This document shows positions 9,454 to 15,394 of a stretch of 64,000 nucleotides of DNA, one piece after another. Each line of letters opens with the position of its first letter. Position 1 is the first letter of the stretch. Source of the stretch: Escherichia coli (lineage in GTDB: Bacteria > Pseudomonadota > Gammaproteobacteria > Enterobacterales > Enterobacteriaceae); assembly GCF_024502345.1 (NCBI RefSeq), contig NZ_JALDNN010000001.1; one strand, written 5' to 3'. Under the pieces are notes generated by a model. The model saw only the letters and a list, made by a program, of their open reading frames with translations, was not told the DNA's origin and did no database searches. The position numbers and the translations under genes are program-made.

Positions 9454-10105
9454 GTTTCAGAATCGGTTAGTGGGCACGATCGTGCTGGTGGCGCTGGGGG
9501 TGATTGTACTTCCAGGGCTGCTGGACGGGCAGAAAAAACATTATCAGGATGAGTTTGCGGCTATCCCGCTGGTTCCAAAAGCGGGCGATCGCGATGAGCC
9601 TGATATGATGCCAGCCGCCACCCAGGCGTTGCCGACGCAGCCGCCGGAAGGCGCAGCGGAAGAGGTGCGGGCAGGTGATGCCGCAGCACCGTCGCTCGAT
9701 CCGGCCACTATTGCAGCCAATAACACCGAGTTTGAACCGGAACCTGCACCGGTCGCCCCACCGAAGCCGAAACCGGTGGAGCCGCCTAAGCCGAAGGTTG
9801 AAGCACCACCTGCGCCGAAGCCAGAACCGAAGCCGGTCGTGGAAGAAAAAGCAGCGCCAACGGGTAAAGCCTATGTTGTGCAACTGGGCGCGCTGAAAAA
9901 TGCCGATAAAGTGAATGAGATTGTCGGTAAGCTGCGCGGTGCCGGTTATCGGGTTTATACGTCGCCATCCACGCCAGTGCAGGGTAAAATTACCCGTATT
10001 CTGGTTGGGCCAGATGCCTCGAAAGATAAGCTGAAAGGTTCGCTTGGCGAACTGAAGCAGATCTCTGGTTTGAGCGGCGTGGTGATGGGCTACACGCCGA
10101 ATTAA
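9443..10105 (+). CDS. dedD: cell division protein DedD (SPOR domain)
   Basis: 220 aa from the GTG at 9443 (the track starts at an upstream TTG, 9425); N-terminal TM helix, Pro/Lys/Glu-rich linker, C-terminal SPOR-like domain; overlaps the folC 3' end by 11 nt. Confidence 0.85.
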   Translation: MASKFQNRLVGTIVLVALGVIVLPGLLDGQKKHYQDEFAAIPLVPKAGDRDEPDMMPAATQALPTQPPEGAAEEVRAGDAAAPSLDPATIAANNTEFEPEPAPVAPPKPKPVEPPKPKVEAPPAPKPEPKPVVEEKAAPTGKAYVVQLGALKNADKVNEIVGKLRGAGYRVYTSPSTPVQGKITRILVGPDASKDKLKGSLGELKQISGLSGVVMGYTPN

Positions 10106-10114
10106 TACGGTTTT

Positions 10115-10475
<361 letters not shown>

Positions 10476-10507
10476 ATTGCACGATGCCGCAAAGGCATAA
10501 AAAGTCG

Positions 10508-10540
10508 ATGGCGTTGAATATTTTTTCAGCGCCATTTTTA
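10508..10540 (+). terminator. rho-independent terminator downstream of dedD and the BIMEs
   Basis: Stem atggcgttgaa/ttcagcgccat, loop tatttt, then a T run. Confidence 0.55.
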
Positions 10541-10564
10541 TTGATGCGCGGGAAGGAAATCCCT

Positions 10565-10580
10565 ACGCAAACGTTTTCTT
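10565..10580 (+). promoter_or_regulatory. PurR operator (PUR box) of the cvpA-purF operon
   Basis: acgcaaacgttttctt matches the PurR operator consensus ACGCAAACGTTTNCNT; immediately followed by an extended -10-like tgttagaat (10585-10593). Confidence 0.75.
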
Positions 10581-10636
10581 TTTCTGTTAGAATGCGCCCC
10601 GAACAGGATGACAGGGCGTAAAATCGTGGGACACAT

Positions 10637-11125
10637 ATGGTCTGGATTGATTACGCCATAATCGCGGTGATTGCTTTTTCCTCTCTGGTTAGCCTGATCC
10701 GCGGCTTTGTTCGTGAAGCGTTATCGCTGGTGACATGGGGGTGTGCTTTCTTTGTTGCCAGTCATTACTACACTTACCTGTCAGTCTGGTTTACGGGCTT
10801 TGAAGACGAACTGGTTCGAAATGGGATTGCCATCGCGGTACTATTTATCGCTACCCTGATCGTTGGTGCTATCGTGAACTTCGTGATAGGCCAGCTGGTG
10901 GAGAAAACGGGGTTGTCAGGCACCGATCGGGTGCTGGGCGTCTGTTTCGGTGCGTTGCGCGGTGTGTTGATTGTTGCTGCCATTCTCTTCTTTCTCGACT
11001 CCTTTACCGGGGTGTCGAAAAGCGAAGACTGGAGCAAATCACAGCTGATCCCGCAGTTCAGTTTTATCATCAGATGGTTTTTTGATTATCTGCAAAGCTC
11101 GTCAAGTTTCTTGCCCAGAGCGTAA
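10637..11125 (+). CDS. cvpA: colicin V production membrane protein
   Basis: 162-aa hydrophobic ORF directly upstream of purF. Confidence 0.85.
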   Translation: MVWIDYAIIAVIAFSSLVSLIRGFVREALSLVTWGCAFFVASHYYTYLSVWFTGFEDELVRNGIAIAVLFIATLIVGAIVNFVIGQLVEKTGLSGTDRVLGVCFGALRGVLIVAAILFFLDSFTGVSKSEDWSKSQLIPQFSFIIRWFFDYLQSSSSFLPRA

Positions 11126-11161
11126 GTGCTCTGAGATGTGGCTTAACGAGGAAAAAGACGT

Positions 11162-12679
11162 ATGTGCGGTATTGTCGGTATCGCCGGTGTTATGCCGGTT
11201 AACCAGTCGATTTATGATGCCTTAACGGTGCTTCAGCATCGCGGTCAGGATGCCGCCGGCATCATCACCATAGATGCCAATAACTGCTTCCGATTGCGTA
11301 AAGCGAACGGGCTGGTGAGCGATGTATTTGAAGCTCGCCATATGCAGCGTTTGCAGGGCAATATGGGCATTGGTCATGTGCGTTACCCTACGGCTGGCAG
11401 CTCCAGCGCCTCTGAAGCGCAGCCGTTTTACGTTAACTCCCCGTATGGCATTACGCTTGCCCACAACGGCAATCTGACCAACGCTCACGAGTTGCGTAAA
11501 AAACTGTTTGAAGAAAAACGCCGCCACATCAACACCACTTCCGACTCGGAAATTCTGCTTAATATCTTCGCCAGCGAGCTGGACAATTTCCGCCACTACC
11601 CGCTGGAAGCCGACAATATTTTCGCTGCCATTGCTGCCACAAACCGCTTAATCCGCGGCGCGTATGCCTGTGTGGCGATGATTATCGGCCACGGTATGGT
11701 TGCTTTCCGCGATCCAAACGGGATTCGTCCGCTGGTACTGGGAAAACGTGATATTGACGAGAACCGTACAGAATATATGGTCGCTTCCGAAAGCGTAGCG
11801 CTCGATACGCTGGGCTTTGATTTTCTGCGTGACGTCGCGCCGGGCGAAGCGATTTACATCACTGAAGAAGGGCAGTTGTTTACCCGTCAATGTGCTGACA
11901 ATCCGGTCAGCAATCCGTGCCTGTTTGAGTATGTATACTTTGCCCGCCCGGACTCGTTTATCGACAAAATTTCCGTTTACAGCGCGCGTGTGAATATGGG
12001 CACGAAACTGGGTGAGAAAATTGCCCGCGAATGGGAAGATCTGGATATCGACGTGGTGATCCCGATCCCGGAAACCTCGTGTGATATCGCGCTGGAAATT
12101 GCTCGTATTCTGGGCAAGCCGTACCGCCAGGGCTTCGTTAAAAACCGCTATGTTGGCCGCACCTTCATCATGCCGGGCCAGCAGCTGCGTCGTAAGTCCG
12201 TGCGCCGTAAACTGAACGCCAACCGCGCCGAGTTCCGCGATAAAAACGTCCTGCTGGTCGACGACTCCATCGTCCGTGGCACCACTTCTGAGCAGATTAT
12301 CGAGATGGCACGCGAAGCCGGAGCGAAGAAAGTGTACCTCGCTTCTGCGGCACCGGAAATTCGCTTCCCGAACGTTTATGGTATTGATATGCCGAGCGCC
12401 ACGGAGCTTATCGCTCACGGTCGCGAAGTTGATGAAATTCGCCAGATCATCGGTGCTGACGGGTTGATTTTCCAGGATCTGAACGATCTGATCGACGCCG
12501 TTCGCGCTGAAAATCCGGATATCCAGCAGTTTGAATGCTCGGTGTTCAACGGCGTCTACGTCACCAAAGATGTTGATCAGGGCTACCTCGATTTCCTCGA
12601 TACGTTACGTAATGATGACGCCAAAGCAGTGCAACGTCAGAACGAAGTGGAAAATCTCGAAATGCATAACGAAGGATGA
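11162..12679 (+). CDS. purF: amidophosphoribosyltransferase
   Basis: 505-aa ORF; N-terminal nucleophile MCGIVGI (class II glutamine amidotransferase); PRTase domain. Confidence 0.95.
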
Positions 12680-12773
12680 TGCCTTCGCTGAGGGTGCCGG
12701 TCTGGCACCCTGACTTGCAACTCCCGCCGAAATCCTGCAAAGTCTGCCTGCAAGTCTGACAGGGCAACTATTT

Positions 12774-13343
12774 ATGAAACGACTCATTGTAGGCATCAGC
12801 GGTGCCAGCGGCGCGATTTATGGCGTGCGCTTATTACAGGTTCTGCGCGATGTCACAGATATCGAAACGCATCTGGTGATGAGCCAGGCAGCGCGCCAGA
12901 CCTTATCCCTCGAAACGGATTTTTCTCTGCGCGAAGTGCAGGCATTAGCCGATGTCACGCACGATGCGCGCGATATTGCCGCCAGCATCTCTTCCGGTTC
13001 TTTCCAGACGCTGGGGATGGTGATTTTACCCTGTTCAATCAAAACCCTTTCCGGCATTGTCCATAGCTATACTGATGGCTTACTGACCCGTGCGGCAGAT
13101 GTGGTGCTGAAAGAGCGTCGCCCGTTGGTGCTCTGCGTGCGTGAAACACCATTGCACTTAGGCCATCTGCGTTTAATGACTCAGGCGGCAGAAATCGGTG
13201 CGGTGATTATGCCTCCCGTTCCGGCGTTTTATCATCGCCCGCAATCCCTTGATGATGTGATAAATCAGACGGTTAATCGTGTTCTTGACCAGTTTGCAAT
13301 AACCCTTCCTGAAGATCTCTTTGCCCGCTGGCAGGGCGCATAA
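12774..13343 (+). CDS. ubiX: flavin prenyltransferase UbiX
   Basis: 189-aa ORF; flavoprotein motif GISGASGA. Confidence 0.9.
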   Translation: MKRLIVGISGASGAIYGVRLLQVLRDVTDIETHLVMSQAARQTLSLETDFSLREVQALADVTHDARDIAASISSGSFQTLGMVILPCSIKTLSGIVHSYTDGLLTRAADVVLKERRPLVLCVRETPLHLGHLRLMTQAAEIGAVIMPPVPAFYHRPQSLDDVINQTVNRVLDQFAITLPEDLFARWQGA

Positions 13344-13351
13344 CTCCGCTG

Positions 13352-13375
13352 TTGCCCTGTTTCAGGGCAATTTTG
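13352..13375 (+). terminator. rho-independent terminator after ubiX
   Basis: Stem ttgccct/agggcaa, loop gtttc, then tttt. Confidence 0.6.
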
Positions 13376-13524
13376 CAACCGCGATCAAATCCTCGACATT
13401 TTGTTTCTGCCATTCAATCGAAACGCTGCGATTCAACCGCTATACCTGCTATCTTCAACTTCAGGACAATAATGCAACGTCTTATTAACATATTTAACGT
13501 TGAATGTTACTGTTGTCGTCAAGA

Positions 13525-13540
13525 TGGCATAAGACCTGCA
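13525..13540 (+). promoter_or_regulatory. sigma54 (-24/-12) promoter candidate for argT
   Basis: TGGCAT-N5-CTGCA matches TGGCAC-N5-TTGCA with GG and GC correctly spaced; lies about 70 nt upstream of the argT ATG. Confidence 0.6.
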
Positions 13541-13608
13541 TGAAAGAGCCTGCAAACACACAACACAATACACAACATAAAAAAGCCATTTTCACTTGAG
13601 GGTTATGT

Positions 13609-14391
13609 ATGAAGAAGTCGATTCTCGCTCTGTCTTTGTTAGTCGGTCTCTCCGCAGCGGCTTCCAGCTATGCGGCGCTACCGGAGACGGTACGTATCGG
13701 AACCGATACCACCTATGCGCCGTTCTCGTCGAAAGATGCTAAAGGTGATTTTGTTGGCTTTGATATCGATCTCGGTAACGAGATGTGCAAACGGATGCAG
13801 GTGAAATGTACCTGGGTTGCCAGTGACTTTGACGCGCTGATCCCCTCACTGAAAGCGAAAAAAATCGACGCCATTATTTCGTCGCTTTCCATTACCGATA
13901 AACGTCAGCAGGAGATTGCCTTCTCCGACAAGCTGTACGCCGCAGATTCTCGTTTGATTGCTGCCAAAGGTTCACCGATTCAGCCAACGCTGGATTCACT
14001 GAAAGGTAAACATGTTGGTGTGCTGCAGGGATCAACCCAGGAAGCTTACGCTAACGAGACCTGGCGTAGCAAAGGCGTGGATGTGGTGGCCTATGCCAAC
14101 CAGGATTTGGTCTATTCCGATCTGGCTGCAGGACGTCTGGATGCTGCGTTACAAGATGAAGTTGCTGCCAGCGAAGGATTCCTCAAGCAACCTGCTGGTA
14201 AAGATTTCGCCTTTGCTGGCTCATCAGTAAAAGACAAAAAATACTTCGGTGATGGCACCGGTGTAGGGCTACGTAAAGATGATGCTGAACTGACGGCTGC
14301 CTTCAATAAGGCGCTTGGCGAGCTGCGTCAGGACGGCACCTACGACAAGATGGCGAAAAAGTATTTCGACTTTAATGTCTACGGTGACTGA
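13609..14391 (+). CDS. argT: lysine/arginine/ornithine periplasmic binding protein
   Basis: 260-aa ORF with a signal peptide; paralog of the downstream hisJ. Confidence 0.9.
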
Positions 14392-14611
14392 TACGTCGCT
14401 GGGAAGTTGTACCTGATGGAATGATCATCATGGTGCACGCCAGGTTTGTTGCACTATCGTGGTGCATTGAAATGCATACTTAAGCATTTTTAATGAAAAA
14501 TAATACGTCTAACGGGGCGGGATATTTTGCCTTGATGGTCAATTTTATGGCACGATAAGTGTAACAAACCTGTAAATATTCCCTATAAAAAGACTGTCAG
14601 TTGAGGACATT

Positions 14612-15394
14612 ATGAAAAAACTGGTGCTATCGCTCTCTCTGGTTCTGGCCTTCTCCAGCGCAACTGCGGCGTTTGCTGCGATTCCGCAAAACATCCGCAT
14701 CGGTACCGACCCGACCTATGCGCCATTTGAATCAAAAAATTCACAAGGCGAACTGGTTGGCTTCGATATCGATCTGGCAAAGGAATTATGCAAACGCATC
14801 AATACGCAATGTACGTTTGTCGAAAATCCGCTGGATGCGTTAATCCCGTCCTTAAAAGCGAAGAAGATTGACGCCATCATGTCATCGCTTTCCATTACGG
14901 AAAAACGTCAGCAAGAAATAGCCTTCACCGACAAACTGTACGCTGCCGATTCTCGTTTGGTGGTGGCGAAAAATTCTGACATTCAGCCGACAGTCGAGTC
15001 GCTGAAAGGCAAACGGGTAGGCGTATTGCAGGGCACCACCCAGGAGACGTTCGGTAATGAACATTGGGCACCAAAAGGCATTGAAATCGTCTCGTATCAG
15101 GGGCAGGACAACATTTATTCTGACCTGACTGCCGGACGTATTGATGCCGCGTTCCAGGATGAGGTCGCTGCCAGCGAAGGTTTCCTCAAACAACCTGTCG
15201 GTAAAGATTACAAATTCGGTGGCCCGTCTGTTAAAGATGAAAAACTGTTTGGCGTAGGGACCGGCATGGGCCTGCGTAAAGAAGATAACGAACTGCGCGA
15301 AGCACTGAACAAAGCCTTTGCCGAAATGCGCGCTGACGGTACTTACGAGAAATTAGCGAAAAAGTACTTCGATTTTGATGTTTATGGTGGCTAA
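14612..15394 (+). CDS. hisJ: histidine periplasmic binding protein
   Basis: 260-aa ORF with a signal peptide; family-3 solute-binding protein; directly upstream of hisQMP. Confidence 0.9.

What the first reader, a model, noticed from the sequence alone, without database searches (positions are those of the whole stretch)
12685..12773. Hairpin and short direct repeats in the purF-ubiX spacer
gggtgccggtctggcaccc (12691-12709) forms a 7-bp GC stem without a T tract and is followed by the near-repeat tgcaaagtctg / tgcaagtctga. This could be a partial terminator or processing site that decouples ubiX from purF expression.
Basis: inference. Interest (0 to 1): 0.2.

Follow-up and report, generated by a model that had tools for sequence, protein, structure and literature searches.

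The report
purF end hairpin plus ubiX promoter
The 94-base gap between the E. coli genes purF and ubiX holds a stem-loop where many purF transcripts end and, right after it, a weak conserved promoter for ubiX; this is ordinary operon fine-tuning and both RNA ends already sit in published genome-wide tables.

Summary
The window is E. coli, and 12560-12860 is identical to K-12. It has 7 bp, or 8 with A12691/T12711, at -16.4 kcal/mol and z -3.3, with no T tract. A 13/12-nt tandem near-repeat lies at 12734-12758.

Published K-12 maps put RNA 3' ends at 12715 (Term-seq) and 12717 (SMRT-Cappable-seq), 2-6 nt past the stem. Of cvpA-promoter transcripts that reach the hairpin, 50-68% end at it and 15-37% run at least 50 nt past. 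A weak start site maps at 12750.

In 71 Enterobacteriaceae spacers the hairpin is kept as a structure with 64 different sequences. It is followed by TTGCAA-N17-CAAAGT with invariant 17-nt spacing, and conservation stops at the start site. This block stays with ubiX in most of the 10 loci that lack purF within 2.5 kb upstream.

The "repeats" are the -10 and start region of a ubiX promoter. The most likely mechanism is Rho-type termination trimmed back to a protective stem-loop; a weak intrinsic terminator is the main rival. This is an ordinary kind of feature and of low interest.

The parts
11162..12679 (+). purF coding sequence (amidophosphoribosyltransferase), stop TGA 12677-12679
   Evidence: ORF list; RefSeq annotation of identical E. 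coli sequence
12689..12713 (+). GC-rich stem-loop at the purF 3' end. The core is 12691-12711 (8 bp, loop GGTCT). In most other Escherichia position 12690 is C, which gives a 10-11 bp stem TCAGGGTGCC/GGCACCCTGA. No U tract follows.
   Evidence: dG -16.4, z -3.3. Escherichia variants, with changes confined to the loop, one G-U-preserving change and the outer pair; a stable hairpin at the same place in 71 Enterobacteriaceae spacers, 64 distinct sequences, median z -3.7; compensatory changes in 4 of 6 predicted pairs.
12715..12717 (+). Mapped RNA 3' ends of the cvpA-purF transcript
   Evidence: Term-seq 3' end at NC_000913.3 2428685(-), classed 'primary' for purF, found twice in a file that has one tab per growth condition (Adams 2021, PMC7815308 supp. 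1). SMRT-Cappable-seq termination site 2428683 for transcripts starting at 2430799 (Yan 2018, PMC6131387). Coordinate mapping checked.
12715..12720 (+). -35 hexamer TTGCAA of the internal ubiX promoter, directly abutting the hairpin
   Evidence: TTGCAA in 61, TTGCGT in 7 and TTGCAT in 3 of 71 spacers; the unforced positions -32 and -29 are near-invariant. It lies exactly 35-30 nt upstream of the mapped start site.
12728..12733 (+). Conserved part of the promoter spacer. It reads CGAAAT in E. coli but TAAAAT or TATAAT in most other genera, so it may be an alternative -10 there.
   Evidence: T at -17 in 64 of 65 distinct segments, A at -19 in 58 of 65
12738..12743 (+). -10 hexamer CAAAGT of the ubiX promoter; it lies inside repeat copy 1
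   Evidence: CAAAGT in 48, CACAGT in 20 and CATTGT in 3 of 71 spacers, always 17 nt after the -35. The start site lies 7 nt downstream. The composite pattern is unique in the 64-kb window, with 0.02 expected by chance.
12750..12750 (+). Transcription start site of ubiX (G), giving a 24-nt leader
   Evidence: Kim 2012 (PMC3415461, supp. file 2): start site 2426672(-) in U00096.2 coordinates, 8 reads, 5' UTR 24 nt. Cross-species conservation stops at this position.
12734..12758 (+). Tandem near-repeat CCTGCAAAGTCTG / CCTGCAAGTCTG. Copy 1 covers -16 to -4 (the -10 region) and copy 2 covers -3 to +9.
12761..12765 (+). Shine-Dalgarno-like AGGGC, 9 nt before the ubiX ATG
   Evidence: Sequence; AAGGGC/AGGGGC is conserved at this distance in other genera
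12774..13343 (+). ubiX coding sequence (flavin prenyltransferase)

Best explanation
The spacer holds two adjacent modules, each of an ordinary kind.

Module 1 is a GC-rich stem-loop without a U tract (12689-12713), right after the purF stop. It defines the 3' end of a cvpA-purF mRNA. Roughly half to two thirds of the transcripts from the PurR-controlled cvpA promoter that reach it end 2-6 nt past the stem, and the rest continue toward ubiX. The most likely route is inferred, not shown. Once the ribosome leaves at the purF stop, Rho loads on the mildly C-rich, G-poor spacer RNA. It stops RNA polymerase diffusely within about the next 100 nt. 3'-to-5' exonucleases then trim back to the stem-loop, which also stabilises the purF message.

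Module 2 is a weak sigma-70 promoter for ubiX: TTGCAA (12715-20), 17 nt, CAAAGT (12738-43), start at G12750, 24-nt leader. It gives ubiX a basal supply that does not depend on purine repression.

Together the two modules partly uncouple ubiX (cofactor supply for ubiquinone synthesis) from purF (purine synthesis).
For: Shown by published mapping on identical sequence:
- 3' ends at 12715 (Term-seq) and 12717 (SMRT-Cappable-seq).
- Read counts in the first tab of that table (column meanings): 868 reads start at the cvpA start site, 254 end at the site, 68 end within 50 nt after it, and 191 pass it, with a median extension of only 99 nt.
- Second tab: 190, 113, 29 and 25 reads, median extension 126 nt.
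- Both cvpA-purF and cvpA-purF-ubiX units are listed from the same start site.
- A start site at 12750, 8 reads.

Shown here:
- Hairpin stability.
- A stable hairpin at the same position in 71 spacers from more than 15 genera, with 64 different sequences, median z -3.7, and 63 of 71 with z below -2.
- Compensatory changes in 4 of 6 pairs.
- -35 and -10 hexamers with invariant 17-nt spacing in 71 of 71 spacers, and conservation that ends at +1.
- I derived the TTGCAA-N17-CAAAGT reading and a start near 12750 from conservation before finding the Kim 2012 start site.
- The hexamer pair is kept upstream of ubiX in 7 of the 10 loci that lack purF within 2.5 kb upstream; L044, L068 and Salmonella L072 lack a recognisable -35 (my reading of the sequences).
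- Klebsiella, Raoultella and Franconibacter carry a canonical hairpin plus T-tract terminator after purF followed by the same promoter block. In those genera ubiX must therefore be promoter-driven.

For the Rho-plus-trimming route:
- There is no U tract.
- C is 30% and G 21% in the 63 nt after the stem, the 92nd percentile of 78-nt windows.
- The anatomy matches the class described by Dar and Sorek 2018: a stable stem-loop, low U, a precise end, and mild C-over-G downstream.
- From the numbers, 3' ends are about 8 times denser in the 50 nt after the site (1.36 per nt) than upstream of it (355 reads over about 2100 nt, 0.17 per nt). Half of the 'read-through' molecules end less than 100-126 nt downstream, far short of the roughly 660 nt needed to clear ubiX.
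Against: - The start site rests on 8 reads in one data set. No start site at this position appears in the SMRT-Cappable-seq table, and that table would favour long transcripts in any case. The other start-site tables I tried either held no supplementary text at all or had no match in the text that is held, or the paper was not held.
- The promoter matches only 7 of 12 consensus positions and is not called by the promoter scan.
- In E. coli the conserved TAAAAT-like spacer motif is degraded to CGAAAT, so promoter use may differ between genera.
- No Rho-termination region at purF/ubiX is listed in the bicyclomycin data of Adams 2021. The authors say that list underestimates Rho sites.
- In several genera (Trabulsiella, Citrobacter sp. 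18056, Enterobacter BIGb0383, Klebsiella) the hairpin is followed by a fair to good U tract. This fits a lineage of intrinsic terminators whose U tract has decayed in E. coli.
- The parse that gave 71 of 71 used a regular expression for TTG...CA[ACT][AT]GT, so the invariance of those seven positions is partly by construction. The fact that every spacer matched, and the unforced positions, are the real evidence.
Confidence: 0.75

Rival explanations
1. The hairpin is a weak intrinsic (Rho-independent) terminator. Its U tract has been eroded because the -35 hexamer TTGCAA of the ubiX promoter occupies that position. RNA polymerase itself releases about half the transcripts at 12715-12717.
For: The 3' ends lie 4-6 nt after the perfect stem and 2-4 nt after the extended stem, close to where intrinsic terminators release. 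In other genera the same position carries hairpins with fair or canonical U tracts: Klebsiella has 6 T in 8, and Trabulsiella and others have 4-5. The site is not in the bicyclomycin-sensitive list of Adams 2021. Yan 2018 treat such sites as genuine termination sites, 95% of which have stem-loops.
Against: Only 2 T occur in the 8 nt after the stem in E. coli, with a tail score of 0.38 against 3.4 for the Klebsiella terminators. It fails the hairpin plus T-run scan. The read-through molecules mostly end within about 100-126 nt instead of running through ubiX. A simple leaky intrinsic terminator does not predict that.
Confidence: 0.3
2. There is no termination at all. The operon is fully transcribed, and the 12715-12717 ends are stable decay or processing intermediates, formed where 3' exonucleases stall at the stem-loop after endonucleolytic cleavage downstream.
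For: Adams 2021 attribute most 3' ends that are neither intrinsic nor Rho-scored to RNA processing. The hairpin is a plausible exonuclease block. RegulonDB and several papers list cvpA-purF-ubiX as one operon.
Against: The molecules counted by SMRT-Cappable-seq carry a 5' triphosphate and span from the start site to this end. The authors argue that such molecules are resistant to RNase E entry. The excess of ends in the first 100 nt downstream, rather than spread over ubiX, is not what decay of full-length RNA predicts. Klebsiella and Raoultella have a true terminator here.
Confidence: 0.12
3. TGGCAC-N6-TTGCA (12703-12719) is a sigma-54 promoter for ubiX.
For: The string resembles the -24/-12 consensus and is rare: 1 match in the window against 0.05 expected. 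A genuine sigma-54 promoter for argT lies 800 nt downstream.
Against: The GG-to-GC offset is 13, not the 12 seen in every site tabulated by Bonocora 2015. Neither purF nor ubiX appears in the main text of that ChIP-seq paper (its supplementary tables were not searched), and the genomic SELEX peaks listed in this area in the main text of the RpoN paper are at argT and upstream of cvpA, not in this spacer. The TGGCAC half is the hairpin's 3' arm and is not conserved outside Escherichia.
Confidence: 0.02
4. The hairpin and repeats are chance features of a neutral spacer and have no function.
For: The whole-spacer fold is only z -1.9. The tandem repeat scores below the default threshold.
Against: The structure is conserved while the sequence turns over across 71 spacers. 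Promoter geometry is invariant. RNA ends are mapped exactly at these features.
Confidence: 0.03

Closest known systems
3' stem-loops of Rho-dependent transcripts (Dar and Sorek 2018, PMC6061677)
   Same: It is a stable GC-rich stem-loop with low uridine content after it. The steady-state 3' end is precise and lies a few nt downstream. There is a mild C-over-G bias in the following sequence.
   Different: Rho dependence and exonuclease trimming have not been shown for this site, and it is absent from the bicyclomycin-sensitive regions of Adams 2021. It also sits inside an operon, only 94 nt before the next translated gene.
Canonical intrinsic terminator, as found at the same position in Klebsiella, Raoultella and Franconibacter
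   Same: It has the same position after the purF stop, a GC-rich stem of similar energy, and partial read-through like many operon-internal terminators.
   Different: E. coli has no U tract (2 T in 8). The position of the U tract is taken by the -35 hexamer of the ubiX promoter.
Operon-internal sigma-70 promoters that give a distal gene expression independent of the main regulated promoter
   Same: It has -35 and -10 hexamers at 17-nt spacing, a start site 7 nt after the -10, and a location in the last intergenic gap of a repressor-controlled operon.
   Different: It is a weak consensus match (TTGCAA / CAAAGT, 7 of 12). The spacer (-19 to -13) and the GC-rich discriminator (-6 to -1) are unusually conserved, which the hexamers alone do not explain.

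Membership tests
Intrinsic (Rho-independent) terminator | GC-rich stem-loop in the nascent RNA | tested here: met
   8-bp stem (10 bp in most Escherichia), -16.4 kcal/mol, z -3.3
Intrinsic (Rho-independent) terminator | U-rich tract immediately after the stem | tested here: not met
   GACUUGCA has 2 U in 8. There is no hit in the hairpin plus T-run scan. Tail score is 0.38 against 3.4 for the Klebsiella terminators at the same locus.
Intrinsic (Rho-independent) terminator | Termination by RNA polymerase alone in vitro | not testable with these tools
   Needs single-round in-vitro transcription.
Rho-dependent terminator with protective 3' stem-loop (Dar and Sorek class) | Precise steady-state 3' end just downstream of a stable stem-loop lacking a U tract | tested here: met
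   Published ends at 12715 and 12717 on sequence identical to K-12; hairpin
Rho-dependent terminator with protective 3' stem-loop (Dar and Sorek class) | C-rich, G-poor (rut-like) sequence downstream | tested here: inconclusive
   C 30% and G 21% over 12711-12773, the 92nd percentile of windows. This is a mild bias, and the region is only about 65 nt before ubiX translation starts.
Rho-dependent terminator with protective 3' stem-loop (Dar and Sorek class) | Read-through increases when Rho is inhibited (bicyclomycin) | tested here: inconclusive
   No purF or ubiX entry in the Rho-termination-region table of Adams 2021. The authors state that the list underestimates Rho sites. The supplementary tables of Dar and Sorek are not held.
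Sigma-70 promoter | -35 and -10 hexamers separated by 17 +/- 1 nt | tested here: met
   TTGCAA-N17-CAAAGT (4 of 6 and 3 of 6 matches, including A-11 and T-7). Spacing is 17 in 71 of 71 spacers. The match is below the scan's threshold of 9 of 12.
Sigma-70 promoter | Primary transcript 5' end about 7 nt after the -10 | tested here: met
   Start site at 12750, 7 nt after T12743, but only 8 reads in one data set (Kim 2012)
Sigma-70 promoter | Promoter activity in isolation, and loss of activity on hexamer mutation | not testable with these tools
   Needs reporter fusions.
Sigma-54 promoter | GG and GC dinucleotides exactly 12 nt apart (TGGCAC-N5-TTGCA) | tested here: not met
   The offset is 13 (TGGCAC-N6-TTGCA). 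All sites tabulated by Bonocora 2015 have offset 12. The -24 half is not conserved.
REP/BIME or other dispersed palindromic repeat | Many copies per genome | tested here: not met
   One place per genome in 5425 genomes; no Rfam match in the spacer at E up to 10

The most novel reading that the evidence does not exclude
The block from -36 to -1 is conserved more tightly than a weak sigma-70 promoter needs. Spacer positions -19 to -13 (AATCC[T/G]G) and the GC-rich discriminator (C-n-GCCC) are nearly invariant across more than 15 genera. TTGCA (-35 to -31) and TGCAA (-14 to -10) form an inverted repeat. This could mark one of three things: an unrecognised regulator site, two overlapping promoters, or stringent (ppGpp/DksA) control. 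Any of these would set prenyl-FMN cofactor supply, and hence ubiquinone synthesis, independently of purine control. The hairpin/-35 junction would then act as a fixed composite terminator-promoter unit.
Probability: 0.2. Interest if true: 0.4.

Novelty: new member of a known kind. Interest (0 to 1): 0.2.

Why it matters
It refines the textbook cvpA-purF-ubiX operon. ubiX would receive only a fraction of the purine-regulated transcription plus a small constitutive input of its own. That makes sense for an enzyme that supplies a cofactor for ubiquinone synthesis and is unrelated to purines. It is also a clean comparative example: a U-less 3' stem-loop kept as a structure in 71 spacers from over 15 genera while its sequence turns over, butted against a promoter whose geometry never changes. 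That could serve as a test case for how Rho-type and intrinsic terminators interconvert. Nothing here challenges current understanding.

Tried and rejected
- Rfam scan of 10000-15000 at E up to 10: nothing in the spacer. The only hits were the REP array upstream of cvpA and noise.
- Consensus promoter/terminator scan: no call in the spacer.
- Sigma-54 reading of TGGCAC-N6-TTGCA: rejected on spacing, lack of conservation and absence from the main texts of the ChIP-seq and genomic SELEX papers.
- TAAAAT-like motif as the E. coli -10: rejected for E. coli because it reads CGAAAT there and the mapped start fits CAAAGT. It remains possible in genera with TATAAT.
- PurR-box reading of GCAAAGTCTGC: rejected by eye. 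It is not a 16-bp palindrome like the listed PurR sites, and the operon's PurR site is upstream of cvpA.
- Dispersed-repeat idea: rejected, since the element is single-copy.
- Long-range pairing that could hide the ubiX ribosome site in read-through RNA (12680-85 with 12761-66; 12677-92 with 12783-98): the upstream arms are not conserved outside Escherichia, so I did not pursue it.
- Literature: no paper in the held library discusses a ubiX promoter or a purF terminator.
- Data sources that gave nothing: Thomason 2015 is not held. Cappable-seq 2016 and ROSE 2023 had no match in their held supplementary text. Conway 2014 and Dar and Sorek 2018 have no supplementary text held. The Klebsiella start-site table of Kim 2012 had no ubiX entry in the stored, truncated text.
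- My automatic hairpin picker mis-handled stems with internal loops in about 9 loci. The whole-region folds are the better record for those.

Full report
IDENTITY AND COORDINATES. The window is E. coli chromosome. A 601-nt probe across the finding matches 5425 of 5426 complete genomes, and the match is annotated purF and ubiX. The local gene order is folC, dedD, cvpA (10637-11125), purF (11162-12679), ubiX (12774-13343), argT, hisJ. Window 12560-12860 is base-for-base identical to K-12 MG1655. K-12 coordinate = 2441400 minus window position, on the minus strand. Published K-12 maps therefore transfer exactly.

THE OBSERVATION. The stem is GGGTGCC/GGCACCC with loop GGTCT, and A12691/T12711 extends it to 8 bp. 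As RNA it folds at -16.4 kcal/mol against -8.9 +/- 2.3 for shuffles, z -3.3. No T run follows, and the terminator scan is silent here. The near-repeat is a tandem 13/12-nt duplication, CCTGCAAAGTCTG then CCTGCAAGTCTG, at 12734-12758. Its score of 43 is below the default threshold. GACTTGCA (12712-19) is also the perfect complement of TGCAAGTC (12749-56). The element is single-copy and unannotated in RefSeq. It matches no Rfam family.

COMPARATIVE ANATOMY. A protein-anchored scan with UbiX returned 80 loci, one per Enterobacteriaceae species. In 70 of them purF ends 88-143 nt upstream of ubiX. With the window that makes 71 spacers. Two things stand out.

- Hairpin. Every spacer begins with a stable hairpin whose sequence differs from genus to genus. 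Examples are GGGTGCC in Escherichia, CAAGGGCGC in Citrobacter, GTGAGGGC in Enterobacter, and GCGCCCCTC in Kosakonia. There are 64 distinct hairpin sequences, with median dG -18 kcal/mol and median z -3.7, and 63 of 71 have z below -2. Even a plain MAFFT alignment of 20 of them shows double compensatory changes in 4 of 6 predicted pairs. Within Escherichia, changes fall in the loop, in one G-U-preserving position, and at the outermost pair. K-12 and the window carry G at 12690 where most others have C, which shortens a 10-11 bp stem to 8 bp. This is selection on structure, so a protein-binding palindrome is unlikely.
- Promoter block. The hairpin is followed by a block that is conserved in sequence: C-TTGCAAC, 17 nt in total to CA(A/C)AGT, then C-n-GCCC. 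After that, conservation collapses. The hexamer spacing is 17 nt in all 71 spacers. The parse used a regular expression, so seven positions are invariant partly by construction. That every spacer matched, and that unforced positions (-32, -29, -17, -15, -13, -6, -4, -3) are also near-invariant, is the evidence. From this I read a sigma-70 promoter with -35 TTGCAA (12715-20) and -10 CAAAGT (12738-43), and I predicted a start near 12750.

PUBLISHED RNA ENDS.

- Start site. Kim et al. 2012 list an E. coli start site at 2426672(-) in the older coordinate version. That is 2428650 in the current version and 12750 in the window. It has 8 reads and a 24-nt ubiX leader. It falls exactly 7 nt after the proposed -10.
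- Term-seq. Adams et al. 2021 list a 3' end at 2428685(-) = 12715, classed as the primary 3' end of purF. It appears twice in a file that has one tab per growth condition.
- SMRT-Cappable-seq. Yan et al. 2018 sequence whole 5'-triphosphate transcripts. They list a new termination site at 2428683 = 12717 for transcripts that start at the cvpA promoter (2430799). In the first tab, 868 reads start there, 254 end at the site, 68 end within 50 nt after it, and 191 pass it. In the second tab the numbers are 190, 113, 29 and 25. So 50-68% of molecules that reach the hairpin end at it and 15-37% go on. Both cvpA-purF and cvpA-purF-ubiX units are listed.

WHICH GENE OWNS WHICH MODULE. In ten loci purF is not within 2.5 kb upstream of ubiX. 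Other genes lie there instead: a LacI-type regulator, an amino-acid permease, or hyp-like genes. By my reading of the upstream sequences, seven of these ten keep a TTG-type -35 hexamer and a CA-AGT-type -10 hexamer at 17-nt spacing in front of ubiX. The hairpin and everything upstream of the -35 are replaced. Pseudocitrobacter L044 and L068 and Salmonella L072 lack a recognisable -35. The block therefore belongs to ubiX and the hairpin to purF. Klebsiella, Raoultella and Franconibacter carry a canonical hairpin plus T-tract terminator after purF, followed by the same promoter block, often with TATAAT in the spacer. There ubiX must depend largely on its own promoter.

MECHANISM OF 3'-END FORMATION (INFERRED). 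E. coli has 2 U in the 8 nt after the stem, so the defining U tract of an intrinsic terminator is absent. The anatomy matches the class of Dar and Sorek 2018: stable stem-loops, low U, precise steady-state ends and mild C-over-G downstream. They attribute these to Rho termination followed by exonuclease trimming. Here C is 30% and G 21% over the 63 nt after the stem, the 92nd percentile.

The SMRT-Cappable-seq numbers add an argument. Molecules that pass the site have a median extension of only 99-126 nt, although clearing ubiX needs about 660 nt. The density of ends in the first 50 nt after the site (1.36 per nt) is about eight times the upstream background (0.17 per nt; my arithmetic). A diffuse termination zone just downstream, with a sharp peak at the hairpin, is what Rho plus trimming predicts.

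Against this, the site is not among the bicyclomycin-sensitive regions of Adams 2021, although the authors say that list is incomplete. Several genera also have intermediate U tracts, which suggests a decayed intrinsic terminator. Given that the hairpin does mark the end of a cvpA-purF transcript, I put Rho plus trimming at roughly 0.45, weak intrinsic termination at 0.3, and pure processing at 0.12.

WHAT THE REPEATS ARE. Copy 1 (12734-46) spans -16 to -4 and contains the -10 hexamer. Copy 2 (12747-58) spans -3 to +9. Copy 2 reads CAAGTC, lacking the final T, so it is not a second -10. The duplication is invariant in Escherichia apart from one change in E. whittamii, and it is recognisable in the Citrobacter amalonaticus/sedlakii group. 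It has decayed or is absent elsewhere. I found no evidence that the repetition itself has a function. It may be an old slippage duplication, and its second copy happens to complement the -35 region.

REJECTED READINGS. A sigma-54 promoter (TGGCAC-N6-TTGCA) fails on spacing: the offset is 13, not 12. It also fails on conservation and is absent from the main texts of the sigma-54 ChIP-seq and genomic SELEX papers. REP-type repeats and chance are also rejected.

BIOLOGICAL SENSE (INFERENCE). The cvpA promoter is repressed by PurR with purines. UbiX makes the prenyl-FMN cofactor for ubiquinone synthesis and has no link to purines. A partial stop after purF plus a weak constitutive promoter would damp the purine-driven swings and guarantee a floor of ubiX expression.

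VERDICT. It is an ordinary kind of feature: an operon-internal 3' stem-loop or terminator next to an internal promoter. Both RNA ends already exist in public tables, though apparently without comment, since no paper in the held library discusses them. It is a new member of a known kind and of low interest. The only mildly unusual point is the near-invariant promoter spacer and GC-rich discriminator, which might hide a regulator site or stringent control.

Noticed in passing
window 10073-10488: An array of five REP/BIME-type units in the dedD-cvpA spacer matches Rfam RF02564 (naRNA4), three of them above the gathering score. The spacer is about 531 nt here against 258 nt in K-12, so the array is expanded in this strain.
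   Followed up: partly
window 12666: Kim 2012 list a second weak start site (10 reads), 108 nt upstream of ubiX, inside the last codons of purF. I see no convincing -10 hexamer in front of it, so it may be a processed end or noise.
   Followed up: partly
window 12677-12692 and 12783-12798: A 16-nt imperfect inverted repeat (81% complementary) brackets the whole spacer and the first codons of ubiX. In read-through RNA it, or the 12680-85/12761-66 pairing of the minimum-energy fold, could mask the ubiX ribosome site. The upstream arm is not conserved outside Escherichia.
   Followed up: partly
window 13525-13540 and 13575: The known sigma-54 promoter of argT (TGGCATAAGACCTGCA) is here. Term-seq (Adams 2021) lists a strong 'orphan' 3' end at K-12 2427825 = window 13575, in the CA-rich argT leader 34 nt before the ATG. 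Its score is about 20 times that of the purF end.
   Followed up: no
L021, L024, L027, L044, L048, L052, L055, L068, L076 (upstream of position 2501); L072 (upstream of 218): In these genomes purF is not within 2.5 kb upstream of ubiX. A LacI-type regulator, an amino-acid permease or hyp-like genes lie there instead. Most keep the TTGC..-N17-CA.AGT block, so the breakpoint lies between the purF hairpin and the ubiX -35. Salmonella arizonae (L072) and Pseudocitrobacter (L044, L068) lack a recognisable -35.
   Followed up: partly
L038, L043, L053, L065, L066, L073, L080, L023 (spacer between purF and ubiX): Klebsiella, Raoultella and Franconibacter have a 134-143 nt (126 nt in Franconibacter) spacer with a canonical hairpin plus T-tract terminator after purF. 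A second small hairpin follows, and then the ubiX promoter block, often with TATAAT (TGnTATAAT in some Raoultella) in the spacer.
   Followed up: partly
window 12744-12749 (positions -6 to -1 of the ubiX promoter): The discriminator between the -10 and the start site is GC-rich and conserved across genera (C-n-GCCC). That composition is typical of promoters under negative stringent (ppGpp/DksA) control. This was not tested.
   Followed up: no
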